A stretch of 64,000 bases of DNA from Escherichia phage vB_EcoM_ESCO49, in the sequence record OM386663.1. One strand, 5' to 3'. Position numbers and translations under genes: made by a program. Shown here in pieces: positions 32,332 through 38,335 of this stretch. Below the pieces are notes generated by a model. The model worked only from the letters and a program-made list of their open reading frames with translations, searched no databases and was not told where the DNA came from. Within the stretch, counting starts at the first letter, position 1. Each line of letters starts with the position of its first letter.

Positions 32332-32667
32332 CTATCCAATATGCTTGCATGACTCACCTCTCATATTTTTGTAAAGGATAAAGCTTCTGTCATGGACGAT
32401 ACTTGTAGATACTGCAAAGTTACTTTCAAGCATCTGTTTGTTTGGATTGTAGAAGCTTTCTTTAAACTCGTCAAGCGCAAATTGGTGATGTTGTGGAAGA
32501 CCTTTTACACAGATTTTTATTGTGATTGCTGCTGCAATCTTGCCAGTCAGTTCTTCTTTAGCTGCTACTAAAATTTTGTTAAGAAACTTTTCACCATCTT
32601 CAGGTTTTTTAATGTTTTCCCAACGTTCTTCTAGGACAATGTTAATGTTCAACTCTTTGATTTTCAT
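32332..32667 (-). CDS. hypothetical protein
   Basis: 111-aa ORF. Confidence 0.45.
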   Translation of the reverse strand: MKIKELNINIVLEERWENIKKPEDGEKFLNKILVAAKEELTGKIAAAITIKICVKGLPQHHQFALDEFKESFYNPNKQMLESNFAVSTSIVHDRSFILYKNMRGESCKHIG

Positions 32668-32683
32668 AGTCTTCTCCAGAAAT

Positions 32684-32710
32684 TAAAAAGGCTCCCGTAG
32701 GAGCCTCTTA
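32684..32710 (-). terminator. rho-independent terminator downstream of the NAMPT-like gene
   Basis: Hairpin AGGCTCC-CGTA-GGAGCCT; U-run follows on the minus strand (plus AAAAA 32684-32688). Confidence 0.5.
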
Positions 32711-32720
32711 TCATATACTT

Positions 32721-34502
32721 TTAAAGCTGCTTGTCAATAATATTTCGAATATCACCAAGAGTTGTGTAACCGAACTGCTCAGAGTCGCTAAAGACTAAAC
32801 GTAAAGCACAAGCTGGGTGGTCAAGTACGTCTGCAAAACTCTGGAATCCATAGCCATCTACAGCTTTCAGCTTATCACCATCCCACATAGGTGCTACACC
32901 ACCAAAGGCAGACTTCTTAACACCACTATCTGTTTTAGGGTCTTTTGCAAGCATAATCTCTTTACCACCAATGCTTGCAAGAGTTGCTTTGACAGCAAAT
33001 GCAAAGGTGTCACGAGTCATGTACTGGTAAGTGTAAGAGCCTACACCAAATACTACGTTAGAGCTTGCAAAACCCATTTCATACAGACGATTCAGGATTT
33101 CGTTTGCACGTTCCAGCGTGATAGAGTCACCATAGATAAGGCCGATGTGCTCATCCAGTACCTTAAACCCTTTAGAGTTAATAGTTCCCCCAAAGATGTT
33201 GTACAGTGTCTTAATAGCTCCATCAATTTCAGCTACAGGACGTGTTACAACATTTGCAGAACCAACCATATAAGCATTCTTCAACATCACCGTATCAGCA
33301 ACTTCAAAGTCTTCTCTGTCAACAACCATTTCGTAGCCTTCTGACAGTAGCCATCCAGCAATACCATAGTCGATGTTTTCAAGCTTCATGTTCAGAACAG
33401 CATTCAACATTGTGTCGCTGGCTTCCAGCTTGCTTAGGTGCTCGTAATAAGCCTTCTTAGCACATTCTAAGTGGATTGCTTTATAACCTGTGACAATATG
33501 TACAGGGTCTCCAGAGTCAGGACGAATTACCAGTTTGCCATCACGTTCCATAATTTCTTTACGAAGTGCTGGTAAAATTTCTGACACAGCTCTCCAGAAG
33601 TTATAAGTGTCTGAAACAATACTTGCAATACCAGTTGGGTAAGTTTCTGTTAAGAAACGACGGAAGGTTTGCAACTCACCTTTAAATCGTCTTTCTTCTT
33701 CAACCAACTCGTTACCACCTTCCCAAGCAATGTTTGCACACATTACAGAGTGTTCAGTGGCTGGTACAGAGCTTCCAATATCAGAGATTGGATAGGTCTG
33801 CCCATAGATACGTTTAGCCGTGTATACAGCAGGGAAGCTATCAGTCCCTTTAAAGCTGGTTAAGTGGCCTACAGCATTGAATGCGTCATCAGTAAAGCCT
33901 GACATACCACGCATAGCAAAGTCATGGCACTGATAAGGTAAATGCAAGTCATTGTCGCAAGTAAGGTCAGCCCACTTCTTACAGATACGTTTGTAGTGTA
34001 ATGCAATAGTAGCAATGGTGCAAGCTTTCCAAATCTCAGCAGAGAAAGCATCCTCCAGATACCCTGCTACCCAATGGAAACCTGAAACAGTGTTCTGGAA
34101 GACAATCATTGGGACACGCATCGGGACAACTGTGCCTTCTTCTACAGCGTATACTTCAACCGGTAGATAACCTAAGTCGTGAAGTGCTTCCCAATGCTCT
34201 CGACCGATAGCATCTTTACCCAGAACACCATTCATGACTTCTAAGATTTCGTCAACTGCTTCTTTTTTATCACGTTCAAAGAAAGTGGCGTTCCAGTGGT
34301 CTATTAAGTAATCTTTAACAAAACGTTGAATACCAAAAGCCACTACACCATCAATTGCTAAGGGGCTGTTAAACCATTTATCACTACGTGGTGTCAGGTT
34401 GAACATCAAGTATTCTGTTGCACTAGGGTACTGGTAAACATGACCAGATTTGTAAGCATCTGCGTTTAAACCTGCTGGTACTGCATAAAGTGATTTAGTC
34501 AT
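32721..34502 (-). CDS. nicotinamide phosphoribosyltransferase-family protein (NadV or Namat-like)
   Basis: 593 aa; NAMPT-like N-terminus (DAYKSGHVYQYP) and full NAMPT length; directly downstream of a Prs-like gene. Confidence 0.7.
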   Translation of the reverse strand: MTKSLYAVPAGLNADAYKSGHVYQYPSATEYLMFNLTPRSDKWFNSPLAIDGVVAFGIQRFVKDYLIDHWNATFFERDKKEAVDEILEVMNGVLGKDAIGREHWEALHDLGYLPVEVYAVEEGTVVPMRVPMIVFQNTVSGFHWVAGYLEDAFSAEIWKACTIATIALHYKRICKKWADLTCDNDLHLPYQCHDFAMRGMSGFTDDAFNAVGHLTSFKGTDSFPAVYTAKRIYGQTYPISDIGSSVPATEHSVMCANIAWEGGNELVEEERRFKGELQTFRRFLTETYPTGIASIVSDTYNFWRAVSEILPALRKEIMERDGKLVIRPDSGDPVHIVTGYKAIHLECAKKAYYEHLSKLEASDTMLNAVLNMKLENIDYGIAGWLLSEGYEMVVDREDFEVADTVMLKNAYMVGSANVVTRPVAEIDGAIKTLYNIFGGTINSKGFKVLDEHIGLIYGDSITLERANEILNRLYEMGFASSNVVFGVGSYTYQYMTRDTFAFAVKATLASIGGKEIMLAKDPKTDSGVKKSAFGGVAPMWDGDKLKAVDGYGFQSFADVLDHPACALRLVFSDSEQFGYTTLGDIRNIIDKQL

Positions 34503-34547
34503 CTTTTAATCTCTCTCAAAATGGGGTTTTTAAGCCCCTATAAAGTT

Positions 34548-35453
34548 TTAATCAAGGTTTGCTACAGTAACTTGACCATAATGTGTTAAGCCACGGTCTT
34601 TAGCTTCCCCTAAAGAGTTTGTAGTGTAGATATGGTCAATGCCATTGTCAAGAAGGTTTTCAACATCTTTAGAGAAGATACCATGTGTTACATAAAGTTC
34701 CACACGTTTTGCACCTGCTTCACGAAGATGTTTCGCTGCTTCTATGAAGGTTCGACCACCATCACAAATATCATCAAGAATCATGACAGTTTTATCTGTC
34801 AAATCAACATCATCAAGGATTCGCATACCAGTTATTTCACCAGTCTTAAGGTTGCGTACTTTAGACATTGTGATATATGGTTTATCCACCTCTTTAGCAG
34901 TCTCTGCAATCTTCTTAGAAGCACCTGCATCTGGGGCTACTAAGTAATCAATCAGAGGGTCATTTGCATAGTGGACTGCAATCTCCTTTTGAGGAATACT
35001 TTGGAAGCAGTTGAAAAGGTTATCTGGAACGTAACTATGAGGGTCAACTGCACAGACTGCATCAAAACCCATTGCATTAACCTGTTGTGCAAACACTTTC
35101 AAAGCTGCTGCATCACCTTTAAACATGTGACGGTCGTAACGTGCATTTGGCAAATAGTAAAAGATAGCAGTCTTCATAGCAAACTTATGAGGTACTAAAT
35201 CATCAATTGCTTCTTTAGCAAGTGCCACAGCAAACAATGTGTCCTTGTCATAGCCTTTTACAATAATAACCACATTGTTGATGGATGATGCTGCATAAGC
35301 AGTAAAATCAACAAGCTCTTGTGAAAAGTGTCCACCAATCTCACCAGAAGGGAACTGGATGATGTTAAACTCTTCTTCATGAGACCCTTTTGTCGGTGAA
35401 TGAATTATAACACGAATCGATGTCTTCATAGTTTTCCCTCTCTTTATTCCCAA
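34548..35453 (-). CDS. ribose-phosphate pyrophosphokinase (Prs)-family protein (possible ADP-ribose pyrophosphokinase, Adps-like)
   Basis: 301 aa; phosphoribosyltransferase binding loop VMILDDICDGGRTF; Prs-like two-domain length. Confidence 0.65.
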   Translation of the reverse strand: MGIKRGKTMKTSIRVIIHSPTKGSHEEEFNIIQFPSGEIGGHFSQELVDFTAYAASSINNVVIIVKGYDKDTLFAVALAKEAIDDLVPHKFAMKTAIFYYLPNARYDRHMFKGDAAALKVFAQQVNAMGFDAVCAVDPHSYVPDNLFNCFQSIPQKEIAVHYANDPLIDYLVAPDAGASKKIAETAKEVDKPYITMSKVRNLKTGEITGMRILDDVDLTDKTVMILDDICDGGRTFIEAAKHLREAGAKRVELYVTHGIFSKDVENLLDNGIDHIYTTNSLGEAKDRGLTHYGQVTVANLD

Positions 35454-35851
35454 ATAACCTTTCTACGCTTTATCTGGATAATGTTCTTTTTACAATATTC
35501 GATAGCTTCATCTATTGACCCAAAACTTTCCTTCTCCACAAAGAAGCGAACTTCACCATCTTGTATCTTTTGTTCTTCGGCTGTTGGCTCTTCAAGTATT
35601 TTACTTGATACTTCTCTGTTAATCTGCATTACATACTCGAAAGAGTTCTTCTTGTACCCAACTATTTTAATGTAACCCCTCTGGCGAAGACGATTGAACC
35701 GAGTTGACTTGTTTGTCTTGGATACATCTGGAAATTCCTTGTCATGGATACTACGTATCTGTGAGCAAGTAAATGTTTTATCATAACCAAACTCATTATA
35801 CAGGACTTTTAACAGTTCAATCATAACATCACTCCCAAATAACTTTTGCAT
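35444..35851 (-). CDS. paralogue A2 of a four-gene winged-helix-like family
   Basis: Track ORF 35444..35896 trimmed to MQKLFGSDVMIELLKVLYNEFGYDKTF, matching paralogue 36315..36737; shared C-terminal motif EAIEYCKKNIIQIKRRKVIWE. Confidence 0.5.
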   Translation of the reverse strand: MQKLFGSDVMIELLKVLYNEFGYDKTFTCSQIRSIHDKEFPDVSKTNKSTRFNRLRQRGYIKIVGYKKNSFEYVMQINREVSSKILEEPTAEEQKIQDGEVRFFVEKESFGSIDEAIEYCKKNIIQIKRRKVIWE

Positions 35852-36293
35852 GTTTAACTTTAATAAGATGCTCTTTGCAGTGCTCAATAGCTTCATCTAG
35901 TGTTTTAAACATAACATCCGCGATAAAGTATCTTACGTCAGGTTGTACATCAACATCTTTAACCTCAGATAAGTTTGATTTTTGTGAACTCCCCAACTCT
36001 TCACGCGTGTTATTTAGCATCCTTGACAGTTGTATGTGCTTCTCCATAAAGGCTCGATTTAATTGATTAATACTTAGTCTACCTTTGCTTTTTACCTGCC
36101 CTACAGTCAGCAGTACACCAGACTGTCTTAACATTGTTAGATACCCACGGGTATTACTGATTGACTGGCCTCGTATAAAAAGGCTATTCTCTCTTAATGC
36201 GTCAATTGCTTCGTTAGAGTCAAAAGTGTTTTCTGTCCCGAAGGTTTTGTATAAAATCTCTATTACGTGCTTCTGTAAATTGCAAAAAATCAT
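35829..36293 (-). CDS. paralogue B2 of the same family
   Basis: MIFCNLQKHVIEILYKTFGTENTFDSNEAIDAL... matches 36715..37167; C-terminus EAIEHCKEHLIKVKHAKVIWE. Confidence 0.5.
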   Translation of the reverse strand: MIFCNLQKHVIEILYKTFGTENTFDSNEAIDALRENSLFIRGQSISNTRGYLTMLRQSGVLLTVGQVKSKGRLSINQLNRAFMEKHIQLSRMLNNTREELGSSQKSNLSEVKDVDVQPDVRYFIADVMFKTLDEAIEHCKEHLIKVKHAKVIWE

Positions 36294-36314
36294 AGTGTAT
36301 TCCTAATCAAATGT

Positions 36315-36737
36315 TTAAACTTCTTCCCAAACAATACGCTTTCTTTTTGTTTGGATAACCGTTCTCTTACAATGCTCAACTGCTGCCTCCATACTGGTAA
36401 AGTGTATGTCACCTATGAAGTATCCTACTTCACCTACACTAACCTCTTCATCCTTTTGTTGATGGCCATTACAATTTAGAAGCACATTTTTAGCTTTGCT
36501 TTCATTGATTCTCATAAGATACTCATTATTAAATCCTGTCGCTCCAACAACACTAATGTACCCACTTTTACGTAATCTGTGAGACCAATTAGCTTTATCC
36601 CTGATTGAAGCATGTGGTAGATATTTATTAAAAACCTTAGTTAGTTGTGAGCCAGAAAATGTTTTATCATAGCCAAAATTTATATACAGAACCTTCAGAA
36701 GCTCAAACATGTTATTACTCCCAAATAATTTTTGCAC
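36315..36737 (-). CDS. paralogue A1
   Basis: MQKLFGSNNMFELLKVLYINFGYDKTF...; C-terminus EAAVEHCKRTVIQTKRKRIVWEEV. Confidence 0.5.
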   Translation of the reverse strand: MQKLFGSNNMFELLKVLYINFGYDKTFSGSQLTKVFNKYLPHASIRDKANWSHRLRKSGYISVVGATGFNNEYLMRINESKAKNVLLNCNGHQQKDEEVSVGEVGYFIGDIHFTSMEAAVEHCKRTVIQTKRKRIVWEEV

Positions 36738-37167
36738 GTTTTACTTTGATAATATACTTTTTGCAGTGTTCAACAGCATCTTGGAGTGTATCAAACATCA
36801 ACTCACCAATAAAGAATTTTATGTCTGGAGACACACCTACACCACTTAAGTCTTTTTGCTGCTCTTCACGTTGGTTTCGTGGCTCTTTAAGTAAATAGTC
36901 TAGCTGAATGTGCTTCTCAATAAAACCTCTATTTAATTGGTTGATGAGCATCCTCCCTTGTTGCTTAATCTGTCCTACCACGATGAGCACACCCCACTTT
37001 CTCATCTGAGTCAAGTAGTACCTGATGTTTGCTATTGGCTGTTTTTTGATGTAATCACTTCCTTCTTGTAGGGCTTCAATAGCTTCATTTGAGTCAAATG
37101 TGTTATCTGTCCCAAACTTATTGTATAGAATCTCAATAATTCTTTTTTGGAAGCTGCAAAAAATCAT
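36715..37167 (-). CDS. paralogue B1
   Basis: MIFCSFQKRIIEILYNKFGTDNTFDSNEAIEAL...; C-terminus DAVEHCKKYIIKVKRAKIIWE. Confidence 0.5.
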   Translation of the reverse strand: MIFCSFQKRIIEILYNKFGTDNTFDSNEAIEALQEGSDYIKKQPIANIRYYLTQMRKWGVLIVVGQIKQQGRMLINQLNRGFIEKHIQLDYLLKEPRNQREEQQKDLSGVGVSPDIKFFIGELMFDTLQDAVEHCKKYIIKVKRAKIIWE

Positions 37168-37176
37168 AATTTTCTC

Positions 37177-37455
37177 TCAATCAAAAGTTACGTTTGTTAC
37201 TGCCATTGCAGATTTGCATTTTACAGGGTCTACAACGTGATAAAGTACACTACAGTTACCTGTGCTGTCTGGTACAGGCTTTACCCATTGCTGCTTTATA
37301 GTTGGTTCTCCTAAGTCTTTGTAAGAGCCGTCTGTAAAATTGTTTACCATCTCAAGTGCAATTGGTTCTGGGACATGACCACGTATCATGTACATTTCAC
37401 AACCATTACCACCATCGCTGACTAGTGGTAAAATCTCCCACTTTTCTTTAGCCAT
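37177..37455 (-). CDS. hypothetical protein
   Basis: 92-aa ORF. Confidence 0.4.
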   Translation of the reverse strand: MAKEKWEILPLVSDGGNGCEMYMIRGHVPEPIALEMVNNFTDGSYKDLGEPTIKQQWVKPVPDSTGNCSVLYHVVDPVKCKSAMAVTNVTFD

Positions 37456-37963
37456 TGTAAGTCGCCCTATAAACTGTCTCGAACTTCAACAGGAGAGATA
37501 TTGCCAAATCTGTATAGTTGTTGTCAAGCACATCTGGCATATTATTTTTGATATATTTCTCTTGCTCTTCATAGGTCATCTTAGGAGTGCTTAGAAGGTT
37601 ATCTCCTTGCTTCTGGTTATCAAGTTTAGTCTGGATAAACCAGTTTGCACAGTGATGCTCACCACCCTTTGTAACAGGTTTGTGGTGGCCTAATGTGAAG
37701 GATTGACTACCTGTGTATCTGCAAAGTTTATTGAGTACTGTAATGGTGTTCTTCACAACAAAACATTCATACAGGTTGTCTATGGTGTAGTGTGGGTAGT
37801 AGCGGAATAGTGCTCTTTCACGAGTGCTATCACGATTCCAGAGAATCATGTGATTAGAGTTTGAAGGGTCATATTGGTGGGAGTCAATGAACTCTTGGCG
37901 TTCCTCAAAGCTGAGTCTTAACACTGACATTGCAGCAGAACGTTTCAGGTTTGACAGGTACAT
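37448..37963 (-). CDS. putative HNH-type endonuclease
   Basis: 171 aa; GHHKPVTKGGEHHCANWFIQTKLDNQKQG resembles an HNH core (His-His ... Asn ... His). Weak call. Confidence 0.35.
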   Translation of the reverse strand: MYLSNLKRSAAMSVLRLSFEERQEFIDSHQYDPSNSNHMILWNRDSTRERALFRYYPHYTIDNLYECFVVKNTITVLNKLCRYTGSQSFTLGHHKPVTKGGEHHCANWFIQTKLDNQKQGDNLLSTPKMTYEEQEKYIKNNMPDVLDNNYTDLAISLLLKFETVYRATYNG

Positions 37964-38014
37964 ATTATCTCCAAAATAAAAAGGGAACCTTTACAGTTCC
38001 CTTATAGTATTTGT

Positions 38015-38335
38015 TTACTGAGCTACTTTCAAGATGCTTGTGAACGAGATTTCACTCTCATCCATAAACTCTTTTGCTTCTCCAGTAACTTTTACAAAGT
38101 TATCTAGGCAGAGAATCTTCTTATCTTTCTTGCTGTAGGTTAGCTTAACCTTTTCAATATCTTTCTTAGAGCTTTCCTCTTCATTAAAGAGCTTTACAGC
38201 TTCTTTGAATGGGAGGTATGAGCCATCATCATCGCTAATAAAACCTGTACCACAATAGTAGAAGTTATATTCTTTAGCCATAAACTGGCACAGTACGAAA
38301 ATCTGTAATTTGCGAGTGTTATAAACTTTACCCAT
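38015..38335 (-). CDS. hypothetical protein
   Basis: 106-aa ORF. Confidence 0.4.
   Translation of the reverse strand: MGKVYNTRKLQIFVLCQFMAKEYNFYYCGTGFISDDDGSYLPFKEAVKLFNEEESSKKDIEKVKLTYSKKDKKILCLDNFVKVTGEAKEFMDESEISFTSILKVAQ

What the first reader, a model, noticed from the sequence alone, without database searches (positions are those of the whole stretch)
35444..37167. Tandem A-B-A-B array of four paralogous proteins next to the NAD module
Four consecutive minus-strand genes form two alternating paralogue types. All share a C-terminal motif ((D/E)(A/E)(A/I)(V/I)EHCK...K.KR.K(I/V)(I/V)WE) and winged-helix-like N-terminal halves. The A-type genes start 23 nt inside the preceding B-type gene with the same VIWE-stop / MQKLFGS overlap, so the duplication is conserved at nucleotide level. 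Function is unknown; diversified paralogue arrays in phage early regions are often anti-defence or host-takeover factors.
Basis: seen in the sequence. Interest (0 to 1): 0.7.

Follow-up and report, generated by a model that had tools for sequence, protein, structure and literature searches.

The report
Paired winged-helix accessory gene cassettes
Four neighbouring genes of a Felix O1-like phage are real, old duplicates of one very rare family of small, probably DNA-binding proteins. They come as optional two-gene cassettes just upstream of a known anti-defence operon, and their function is still untested.

Summary
The window is a Felixounavirus genome, 99.8% identical to phage ESCO50 across this stretch. 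The four minus-strand genes are real paralogues: pairwise BLASTP E-values run from 2e-15 to 9e-37, and all four match phrog_29478 (unknown function). In transcription order they read B1-A1-B2-A2.

- The 23-nt overlap comes from calling the longest ORF. The A genes start at an ATG 4 nt after the B stop, and the B gene's final Trp-Glu codons (TGGGAG) supply the ribosome-binding site.
- The duplication is old. Nucleotide identity is 47-64% overall and reaches 74-75% only in two segments.

AlphaFold gives both types the same build: a confident winged helix, a disordered linker, and a small beta-beta-alpha module with a basic tail. Fold searches find only generic winged helices. No Pfam, NCBIfam or PADLOC family matches. 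A profile search of 1.84 billion proteins found 5 hits.

The genes behave as optional two-gene cassettes at one fixed site, between a 92-aa gene and adps of the NARP1 operon. About 93% of related phages have none, some have one pair, and 10 have two pairs. dN/dS is 0.05-0.22.

My best reading is co-translated, nucleic-acid-binding winged-helix partners that serve as accessory regulators or host-takeover factors. A counter-defence role is possible but untested. Interest is moderate.

The parts
36715..37167 (-). B1 gene, 150 aa: winged helix, about 25-aa disordered linker, C-terminal beta-beta-alpha module, basic tail ending WE
   Evidence: ORF. phrog_29478 E 9e-63. AF2 mean pLDDT 76, winged-helix part mostly above 90. 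Orthologue dN/dS 0.05-0.08.
36315..36710 (-). A1 gene, 131 aa, corrected start at ATG 36710 (the longest ORF starts at GTG 36737). Short type: no 6-aa N-terminal extension and a shorter linker.
   Evidence: AF2 gives the same architecture as B1. dN/dS 0.16-0.22. BLASTP against B1 6e-18.
35829..36293 (-). B2 gene, 154 aa; 57% identical to B1 and 72-78% to the first gene of the B2-C pairs in Pr103Blw, Mordin and L008
   Evidence: phrog_29478 E 2e-67.
35444..35824 (-). A2 gene, 126 aa, corrected start at ATG 35824 (the longest ORF starts at 35896; GenBank ESCO50 annotates a 135-aa version)
   Evidence: BLASTP against A1 9e-37 and against B2 2e-15.
36708..36722 (-). B1-to-A1 coupling junction: TGG GAG TAA taac ATG. 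The Trp-Glu codons of B1 supply the GGGAG Shine-Dalgarno 7 nt before the A1 ATG.
   Evidence: Read from the sequence. The same layout occurs in L006 and L007.
35822..35836 (-). B2-to-A2 coupling junction: TGG GAG TGA tgtt ATG, with the same layout as B1-to-A1
   Evidence: It lies inside direct repeat D1 (196 nt, 75% identity).
37168..37189 (-). Leader copy 1: the 3' end of the 92-aa gene plus the ribosome-binding site (ACTTTTGATTGAGAGAAAATT) in front of B1
   Evidence: Direct repeat D2 reaches 37189. Junction comparison.
36294..36314 (-). Leader copy 2: a degenerate copy of the same leader (ACATTTGATTAGGAATACACT) between A1 and B2, marking the seam between the two cassettes
   Evidence: 18 of 30 identical ungapped. 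In Mordin the equivalent repeat is a perfect 36-mer.
37177..37455 (-). Conserved 92-aa gene (phrog_4726, unknown function), the upstream border of the insertion site
   Evidence: It lies directly next to adps in Felix O1 and adrianh.
34548..35432 (-). adps (annotated prs), the first gene of NARP1 and the downstream border of the insertion site
   Evidence: Pfam PF00156 and PF14572. NARP1 was demonstrated in the Felixounavirus Bas63.
32721..34502 (-). namat (annotated nampt/nadV), the second gene of NARP1
   Evidence: Pfam PF04095 and PF18127. Paper read.
37981..38003 (-). Terminator-like hairpin upstream of the 171-aa gene, the predicted 5' boundary of the transcription unit that holds the array
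   Evidence: Mordin annotators mark a terminator at the equivalent position.
32686..32709 (-). Terminator-like hairpin just after namat, the predicted 3' boundary of the transcription unit

Best explanation
The array consists of two tandem copies of an optional two-gene cassette found only in Felix O1-like phages. Each cassette has a leader, a long 'B' gene and a second gene.

Shown or predicted with confidence:
- Every protein has a basic N-terminal winged-helix domain.
- A flexible linker follows it.
- The C-terminus carries a family-specific module of about 40 aa: beta-beta-alpha plus a basic tail ending in Trp-Glu.

Inferred:
- The winged helices bind nucleic acid, most likely DNA. Each paralogue carries its own recognition-helix sequence.
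- The conserved C-terminal module joins the proteins into dimers or oligomers. The two products of a cassette would form a hetero-oligomer, because they are always found together. In the B-A pairs they are also translationally coupled.
- The complex acts as a dispensable accessory regulator or host-takeover factor. It would bind host or phage DNA early in infection and be expressed from the same transcription unit as the NARP1 NAD+-reconstitution genes.
- Cassettes are gained, lost and stacked by recombination between the short repeated leader sequences that flank them.
For: - Paralogy and real coding status. Orthologues in diverged relatives have dN/dS of 0.05-0.08 (B1) and 0.16-0.22 (A1), against 0.12-0.17 for adps and namat.
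- Architecture: AF2 models of B1 and A1 show H1-S1-H2-H3-hairpin with pLDDT of about 81-94, a disordered linker, then beta-beta-alpha with pLDDT of about 70 and a low-confidence tail.
- Charge: the N-terminal domains have pI 9.1-9.8. B-type wings carry a K-x-x-G-R tip (read from the sequences; the wing position comes from the AF2 strands).
- Family signature: the C-terminal module is the most conserved part. It is the only part shared with the sole outside relative, P0015.
- Pairing: all Ounavirinae loci examined carry pairs and never a single gene. Pair types are B1-A1 (L006, L007), B2-C (Pr103Blw, Mordin, Henu11, KMM2, L008, L009) and B1-A1-B2-A2 (10 phages).
- Coupling: a 4-nt gap, with the Shine-Dalgarno inside the upstream gene's last codons, occurs at all four B-to-A junctions seen.
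- Dispensability and cassette behaviour: about 199 of 214 related phages, including Felix O1, have the empty site. The Mordin cassette is flanked by a perfect 36-nt direct repeat. A degenerate leader copy lies between A1 and B2 in the window.
- Co-transcription: the 171-aa gene, the 92-aa gene, the array, adps and namat all lie between two terminator-like hairpins, with no other terminator-like hairpin among the array genes; one weaker hairpin match lies inside adps (34801-34784) (Mordin annotation).
Against: - No Pfam winged-helix family reaches threshold.
- No operator-like inverted repeats turned up in 32600-38100.
- Hetero-oligomerisation could not be modelled, because the tool predicts single chains only.
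- B2-C pairs have 28-33-nt spacers with their own ribosome-binding site, so tight coupling is not universal.
- The outside relative P0015 is a single gene.
- The A1 wing tip lacks basic residues.
- Expression timing is unknown.
Confidence: 0.45

Rival explanations
1. The proteins are counter-defence factors that extend the NARP1 operon. They would neutralise a host immune protein or signal, through protein-protein or ligand binding by the winged helix or the C-terminal module, rather than regulate genes.
For: - They share strand and predicted transcription unit with NARP1, which is experimentally anti-defence in the Felixounavirus Bas63.
- There is a precedent for a variable extra gene inside a NARP1 locus acting as a cooperating anti-defence enzyme: RyDEP gp78 in phage DyoEdafos.
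- The patchy, cassette-like distribution is typical of anti-defence accessory genes.
- The family is very narrow.
Against: - There is no similarity to any known anti-defence or defence protein (PADLOC has none; no named homologue).
- Selection is strongly purifying rather than arms-race-like.
- One contig keeps the array after deleting NARP1.
- The single outside homologue lies about 5.8 kb from namat, with rIIA, rIIB and other genes in between.
- The basic winged-helix fold fits nucleic-acid binding better.
Confidence: 0.25
2. The proteins are dedicated Aca-like transcriptional regulators of the NARP1 operon. They would bind its promoter to tune expression of adps and namat.
For: These are winged-helix proteins encoded immediately upstream of, and co-oriented with, an anti-defence operon. 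HTH regulators embedded in anti-defence operons are an established pattern; this point rests on my own knowledge of Aca proteins and was not tested here.
Against: - About 93% of phages with the same NARP1 locus, including Bas63 and Felix O1, work without the array.
- L008 has lost NARP1 but keeps an intact pair.
- No operator-like inverted repeat was found in the unit.
- A single promoter would not need four divergent recognition helices.
Confidence: 0.08
3. The cassette is a selfish or decaying mobile element, for example the DNA-binding remnant of a homing-endonuclease-type element, and contributes nothing to phage fitness.
For: - It shows presence/absence polymorphism at one precise site with flanking direct repeats.
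- Felixounaviruses are rich in HNH homing endonucleases, including between adps and namat in ESCO50 and Felix O1.
- An HNH-like 171-aa gene lies two genes upstream.
Against: - None of the four proteins contains a nuclease domain.
- Purifying selection is strong over synonymous divergence (dS) of about 1.
- All four ORFs are intact in all 10 four-gene phages.
- The HNH-like gene is present in array-free phages too.
Confidence: 0.07

Closest known systems
Winged helix-turn-helix DNA-binding proteins of the MarR / PadR / SarA / Fur type (fold level only)
   Different: No sequence-profile membership in any Pfam or NCBIfam winged-helix family. The MarR-type N- and C-terminal dimerisation helices are absent. 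Instead there is a flexible linker and a beta-beta-alpha-tail module with no detectable relatives. The genes are encoded as coupled pairs of divergent paralogues rather than as one homodimeric regulator.
phrog_29478 (PHROGs v4, unknown function)
   Same: All four proteins, the C-type partner P0009 and the C-terminus of P0015 match this profile.
   Different: The PHROG carries no function, so it only shows that the family had already been clustered. The profile is 150 positions long, which is B-type length. The short A types match from profile position 9-10 onward, with far weaker E-values (1e-14 to 1e-15).
Aca-type HTH regulators embedded in phage anti-defence operons
   Same: A small (w)HTH protein encoded in the same unit as an anti-defence operon, here NARP1.
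   Different: The array lies upstream rather than downstream. There are two to four divergent copies. It is not coupled to the presence of NARP1 in either direction. No operator was found.
RyDEP (gp78 of phage DyoEdafos), an accessory gene inserted in a NARP1 locus
   Same: A variable extra gene at a NARP1 locus that is absent from close relatives.
   Different: RyDEP is a RyR-domain glycosidase lying inside the operon. The proteins here are winged-helix proteins with no enzymatic domain and no sequence or fold relationship to it.
SH2 domain, alphaB region (NCK1/NCK2)
   Same: A local resemblance of about 35 residues: Y-x-I-G-x-x-x-F-x-T-(L/M)-E-E-x-V-E-H-(C/Y)-K-K, on the same strand-strand-helix arrangement (E 0.08).
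   Different: Sub-significant and covering only a fragment. The SH2 core (the Arg pocket and the central sheet) is absent. I treat it as chance or convergence.

Membership tests
Winged helix (wHTH) fold superfamily | H1-S1-H2-H3-S2-wing-S3 topology | tested here: met
Winged helix (wHTH) fold superfamily | Sequence-profile match to a curated wHTH family | tested here: not met
   No Pfam or NCBIfam hit near threshold. There is only an E 2.8e-5 profile hit to winged-helix-like repeats in P0016, which itself has only sub-threshold wHTH Pfam hits.
Winged helix (wHTH) fold superfamily | Nucleic-acid binding through helix 3 and the wing | not testable with these tools
   Only indirect support: pI 9.1-9.8 for the N-terminal domain and basic wing tips in the B types.
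MarR / PadR family regulators | Family HMM match and helical dimerisation elements flanking the winged helix | tested here: not met
   No HMM match. The models show one extra helix, then a disordered linker and a beta-beta-alpha module instead.
Aca-like autoregulator of an anti-defence operon | HTH gene in the same operon as the anti-defence genes | tested here: inconclusive
   Same strand, no terminator-like hairpin among the array genes (one weaker hairpin match lies inside adps), and terminator-like hairpins bracket the unit. No transcript data.
Aca-like autoregulator of an anti-defence operon | Consistent co-occurrence with the regulated anti-defence genes | tested here: not met
   About 199 of 214 NARP1-bearing relatives lack the array. 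L008 has the array without NARP1.
Aca-like autoregulator of an anti-defence operon | Inverted-repeat operator at the operon promoter | tested here: inconclusive
   Apart from the terminator-like hairpin itself, no convincing short-range inverted repeat was found in 32600-38100. The promoter is not mapped.
Homing-endonuclease gene / mobile cassette | Nuclease domain (HNH, GIY-YIG, LAGLIDADG and similar) | tested here: not met
   No such domain by Pfam, PHROG or structure prediction.
Homing-endonuclease gene / mobile cassette | Presence/absence polymorphism at a precise site between conserved genes | tested here: met
   The empty site has the 92-aa gene's stop codon 10-11 nt from the adps ATG in adrianh and Felix O1. 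Occupied sites appear in 15 GenBank phages and 4 metagenome contigs. A 36-nt perfect flanking repeat occurs in Mordin.
phrog_29478 | Profile HMM match | tested here: met
   E-values 9e-63, 2e-67, 3e-14 and 1e-15 for B1, B2, A1 and A2.
Known anti-phage defence or anti-defence protein families | Profile match in PADLOC-DB or a named homologue | tested here: not met
   No PADLOC hit at E up to 1. None of the 14 homologous clusters has an informative name; one is named only 'hypothetical protein'. A dedicated anti-defence HMM library was not available.

The most novel reading that the evidence does not exclude
The paired winged-helix cassettes are a new kind of phage counter-defence or host-takeover module functionally tied to the NARP1 operon. 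For example, hetero-oligomers might block a DNA-sensing or NAD+-depleting immune system, or silence host defence genes. The family-specific C-terminal beta-beta-alpha-WE module would then be a previously unseen interaction domain.
Probability: 0.15. Interest if true: 0.65.

Novelty: new variant of a known kind. Interest (0 to 1): 0.35.

Why it matters
- The cassette would be a clean natural experiment. It is present in 0, 1 or 2 pairs at one fixed site in otherwise near-identical, easily cultured Felixounaviruses, which are used in typing and therapy.
- It sits next to NARP1, so it is a sensible candidate for anti-defence or host-takeover screens.
- The paired, co-translated winged-helix layout with a private C-terminal module would add a new architecture to phage DNA-binding proteins.
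- The leader-repeat mechanism illustrates how small gene cassettes are stacked and lost in lytic phage genomes.
- Without a phenotype, it remains a modest, lineage-restricted 'hypothetical protein' family.

Tried and rejected
- Pfam, NCBIfam and PADLOC scans gave only sub-threshold noise: XopL_C, RBFA, Tap-RNA_bind, CV_2116.
- A PDB sequence-profile search gave only an E 0.08 local match to the alphaB region of the NCK SH2 domain, which I judged to be chance.
- Two word-index homologue searches and one exhaustive profile search found almost nothing outside Ounavirinae. A third search seeded with the outside relative P0015 found only itself.
- A search for operator-like repeats in the unit found nothing convincing. 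Rfam found nothing.
- Literature searches for Felixounavirus with 'winged helix' or with transcriptome terms returned nothing useful. The 2026 aRES preprint (RES-mediated NAD+ depletion) gave no hit for any of the searched terms (Bas63, adjacent, upstream of, neighbor, winged).
- 'Recent duplication' is rejected on nucleotide identity.
- 'Overlapping genes' is rejected on start-site evidence.
- 'Fast-evolving arms-race genes' is rejected on dN/dS.
- 'Homing endonuclease' is rejected for lack of any nuclease domain.
- A hetero-dimer structure prediction was not possible, because the tool handles single chains only.
Full report
**What the window is.**
The stretch 35300-37400 is 99.8% identical to Escherichia phage vB_EcoM_ESCO50. 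It matches 214 phage records, which by organism name are overwhelmingly Felix O1-like (Felixounavirus) phages of E. coli and Salmonella; every record whose taxonomy was looked up is Ounavirinae. The finding lies on the minus strand. Upstream are the anaerobic ribonucleotide reductase genes, and downstream is a prs-like plus nampt-like gene pair.

**The observation.**
Four consecutive minus-strand ORFs fill 35444-37167. In transcription order I call them B1 (36715-37167, 150 aa), A1, B2 (35829-36293, 154 aa) and A2.

They are clearly paralogous:

| Pair | Amino-acid identity | BLASTP E-value |
|---|---|---|
| B1/B2 | 57% | not run |
| A1/A2 | 42% | 9e-37 |
| B1/A1 | 26-38% | 6e-18 |
| B2/A2 | 26-38% | 2e-15 |

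(The 26-38% range covers all A/B pairs.)

All four match one PHROG of unknown function, phrog_29478. Across 17 members the invariant columns are F119, F125, A131, E133, C135, I140, K143, W149 and E150 in B1 numbering.

**Two details do not hold.**
- *The 23-nt overlap.* The 'MQKLFGS' N-terminus is the out-of-frame reading of the conserved B C-terminus (…AKIIWE). The A genes start at the next ATG (36710 and 35824), 4 nt after the B stop codon. The B gene's final Trp-Glu codons (TGGGAG) form a GGGAG Shine-Dalgarno 7 nt upstream. All A1-type orthologue clusters are 131 aa and start M(F/L/I)ELLK, and the homology to the B genes begins exactly there. With corrected starts A1 is 131 aa and A2 is 126 aa.
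- *Nucleotide-level conservation.* The duplication is old. Codon-aligned nucleotide identity is 64% for B1/B2 and 56% for A1/A2. Only a 196-nt segment across the B-to-A junction and a 126-nt segment over the B 5' end plus its leader reach 74-75%.

**They are real genes.**
Orthologues of B1 and A1 occur on two diverged metagenomic Ounavirinae contigs, L006 and L007, at synonymous divergence (dS) of about 0.8-1.4. Their dN/dS is 0.05-0.08 (B1) and 0.16-0.22 (A1). Selection on them is therefore as strong as, or stronger than, on the flanking enzymes adps and namat, at 0.11-0.17. This argues against both 'spurious ORFs' and rapid arms-race diversification.

**Architecture.**
AlphaFold2 gives the same layout for B1 and A1 (B1: mean pLDDT 76, pTM 0.61; A1: 74, 0.54):
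- H1-S1-H2-H3-beta-hairpin, a winged helix, with pLDDT of about 81-94
- one further helix
- a disordered acidic or polar linker, long in the B types and short in the A types
- a small beta-beta-alpha unit at pLDDT of about 70
- a basic tail of low confidence ending in WE

The N-terminal domains are basic, with pI 9.1-9.8. Pfam, NCBIfam and PADLOC give nothing. The C-terminal module has no detectable relative. A sub-significant local resemblance to the alphaB region of the SH2 domain is best read as chance.

**How rare the family is.**
- Word-index searches of 5.8 billion clusters found 9 clusters with the B1 query and 5 with the A1 query. None has an informative name (one is labelled only 'hypothetical protein').
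- An exhaustive profile search of 1.84 billion representatives found 5 proteins. Three are the family's own subtypes.
- The fourth is a 125-aa singleton (P0015) that shares only the C-terminal module. It lies on a contig whose rIIA is at most 50% identical to Pectobacterium Arno/Wc4-type phages.
- The fifth is a 1424-aa protein with winged-helix-like repeats.
- In GenBank phages the family occurs in 15 records, all Ounavirinae.

**Locus comparison: the most informative result.**
The genes always occupy one site, between a conserved 92-aa gene and adps.

| State of the site | Where found |
|---|---|
| Empty (the 92-aa gene's stop codon lies 10-11 nt from the adps ATG) | about 199 of 214 related phages, including Felix O1 and adrianh |
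| One B1-A1 pair | L006, L007 |
| One B2-C pair (C is a long type, 50-55% identical to B1) | Pr103Blw, Mordin, Henu11, KMM2, L008, L009 |
| B1-A1-B2-A2 | the window and ten GenBank records (nine distinct phages; one is listed twice) |

No locus in Ounavirinae has a single gene. Each pair ends with a copy of the leader, meaning the 3' end of the 92-aa gene plus the ribosome-binding site. In Mordin this is a perfect 36-nt direct repeat on both sides of the cassette. In the window a degenerate copy sits between A1 and B2.

The four-gene array is therefore best read as two different cassettes stacked by recombination at these leader repeats, not as an in-place duplication. Recombination between the repeats would regenerate the empty site.

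**Context.**
The prs-like and nampt-like neighbours have the same Pfam composition as genes 79-80 of the Felixounavirus Bas63. Those genes were shown experimentally to be Adps and Namat of NARP1, a pathway that rebuilds NAD+ and defeats NAD+-depleting defence systems (bioRxiv 10.1101/2024.02.11.579819). Orthology is inferred from genus, locus and domain content; I did not align the proteins.

Terminator-like hairpins at 38003-37981 and 32709-32686 bracket the unit: 171-aa gene, 92-aa gene, B1, A1, B2, A2, adps, namat. Mordin's annotators placed terminators at the equivalent positions. So the array probably rides on the same transcript as NARP1.

A variable extra gene inside a NARP1 locus has a precedent as an anti-defence partner: RyDEP. 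Three facts count against a strict functional tie:
- NARP1 works without the array in most relatives.
- Contig L008 keeps an intact B2-C pair, although NARP1 has been deleted there. The first 24 codons of adps are fused to the gene downstream of namat.
- The one outside homologue is not adjacent to namat.

**Mechanism.**
*Shown or well predicted:* the two-domain build, the basic winged helix, purifying selection, pairing, the coupling layout and the optional cassette behaviour.

*Inferred:*
- The winged helices bind nucleic acid. Recognition-helix sequences are conserved within each subtype and differ between subtypes.
- The conserved C-terminal module joins the partners. Its low monomer confidence is typical of an interface that forms only in a complex.
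- The complex is a dispensable regulator or host-takeover factor made together with NARP1.

I put this reading at about 0.45. A nucleic-acid-independent counter-defence role gets about 0.25, a dedicated NARP1 regulator about 0.08, and a selfish remnant about 0.07.

**Verdict.**
This is a genuine but ordinary-sized finding: an uncharacterised, lineage-restricted winged-helix family arranged as optional coupled pairs. The anti-defence idea remains a reasonable hypothesis that can be tested directly, because natural 0-, 1- and 2-cassette phages exist.

Noticed in passing
window 37448-37963 (-): The conserved 171-aa gene two genes upstream of the array (phrog_3500) contains an HNH-like motif, GHHKPVTKGGEHHCANWFIQ...N. 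It has a weak hit to an HNH endonuclease PHROG (E 2.4e-4) and is present in array-free phages too. It overlaps the 92-aa gene by 8 nt.
   Followed up: partly
L004 (Citrobacter phage Mordin) 3465-3500 and 4430-4465: A perfect 36-nt direct repeat (TAACATTTGTAACTTTTGACTGAGAGAAATATTATG) flanks the two-gene cassette. It comprises the 3' end of the 92-aa gene, the ribosome-binding site and the ATG, and looks like the footprint of cassette insertion or duplication.
   Followed up: yes
L008 3527-3901 (metagenome contig SRR14751623_249112): A natural deletion of the whole NARP1 operon. The first 24 codons of adps are fused in frame to the gene that normally follows namat, while the B2-C pair is intact. 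This could be a real variant or an assembly artefact.
   Followed up: partly
L001 1749-2240 (ESCO50) and L010 2715-3206 (Felix O1), compared with window 34503-34547: ESCO50 and Felix O1 carry an HNH homing endonuclease gene between adps and namat. The window has only a 45-nt spacer there, so it differs from its closest relative by this mobile gene.
   Followed up: no
window 37981-38003, both strands: A 23-nt hairpin scores as terminator-like on both strands. It is immediately preceded by a promoter-like TTGAAA-17-TACTAT at 38032-38004 (-). It may be a bidirectional terminator or a regulatory stem-loop at the start of the unit that contains the array.
   Followed up: no
P0016 (1424 aa): A giant protein with at least six tandem modules of about 95 aa. 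Their winged-helix-like core (…LLGWLIEHF.ENKTV…L..LKKRGLI…) resembles the N-terminal domain of the family at E 2.8e-5. Its Pfam hits to wHTH families are all sub-threshold, and its origin was not examined.
   Followed up: partly
L005 10505-11245: The novel Arno/Wc4-like phage contig that carries the single outside homologue also encodes a Macro-domain protein and a weak WYL_2-like protein a few genes downstream, in a run of small unknown genes.
   Followed up: no
window 38015-38335 (-): This 106-aa gene is annotated 'HNH endonuclease' in several GenBank relatives, but it matches only Pfam DUF7390 (E 1.5e-16) and PHROGs of unknown function. The HNH label looks unsupported.
   Followed up: partly
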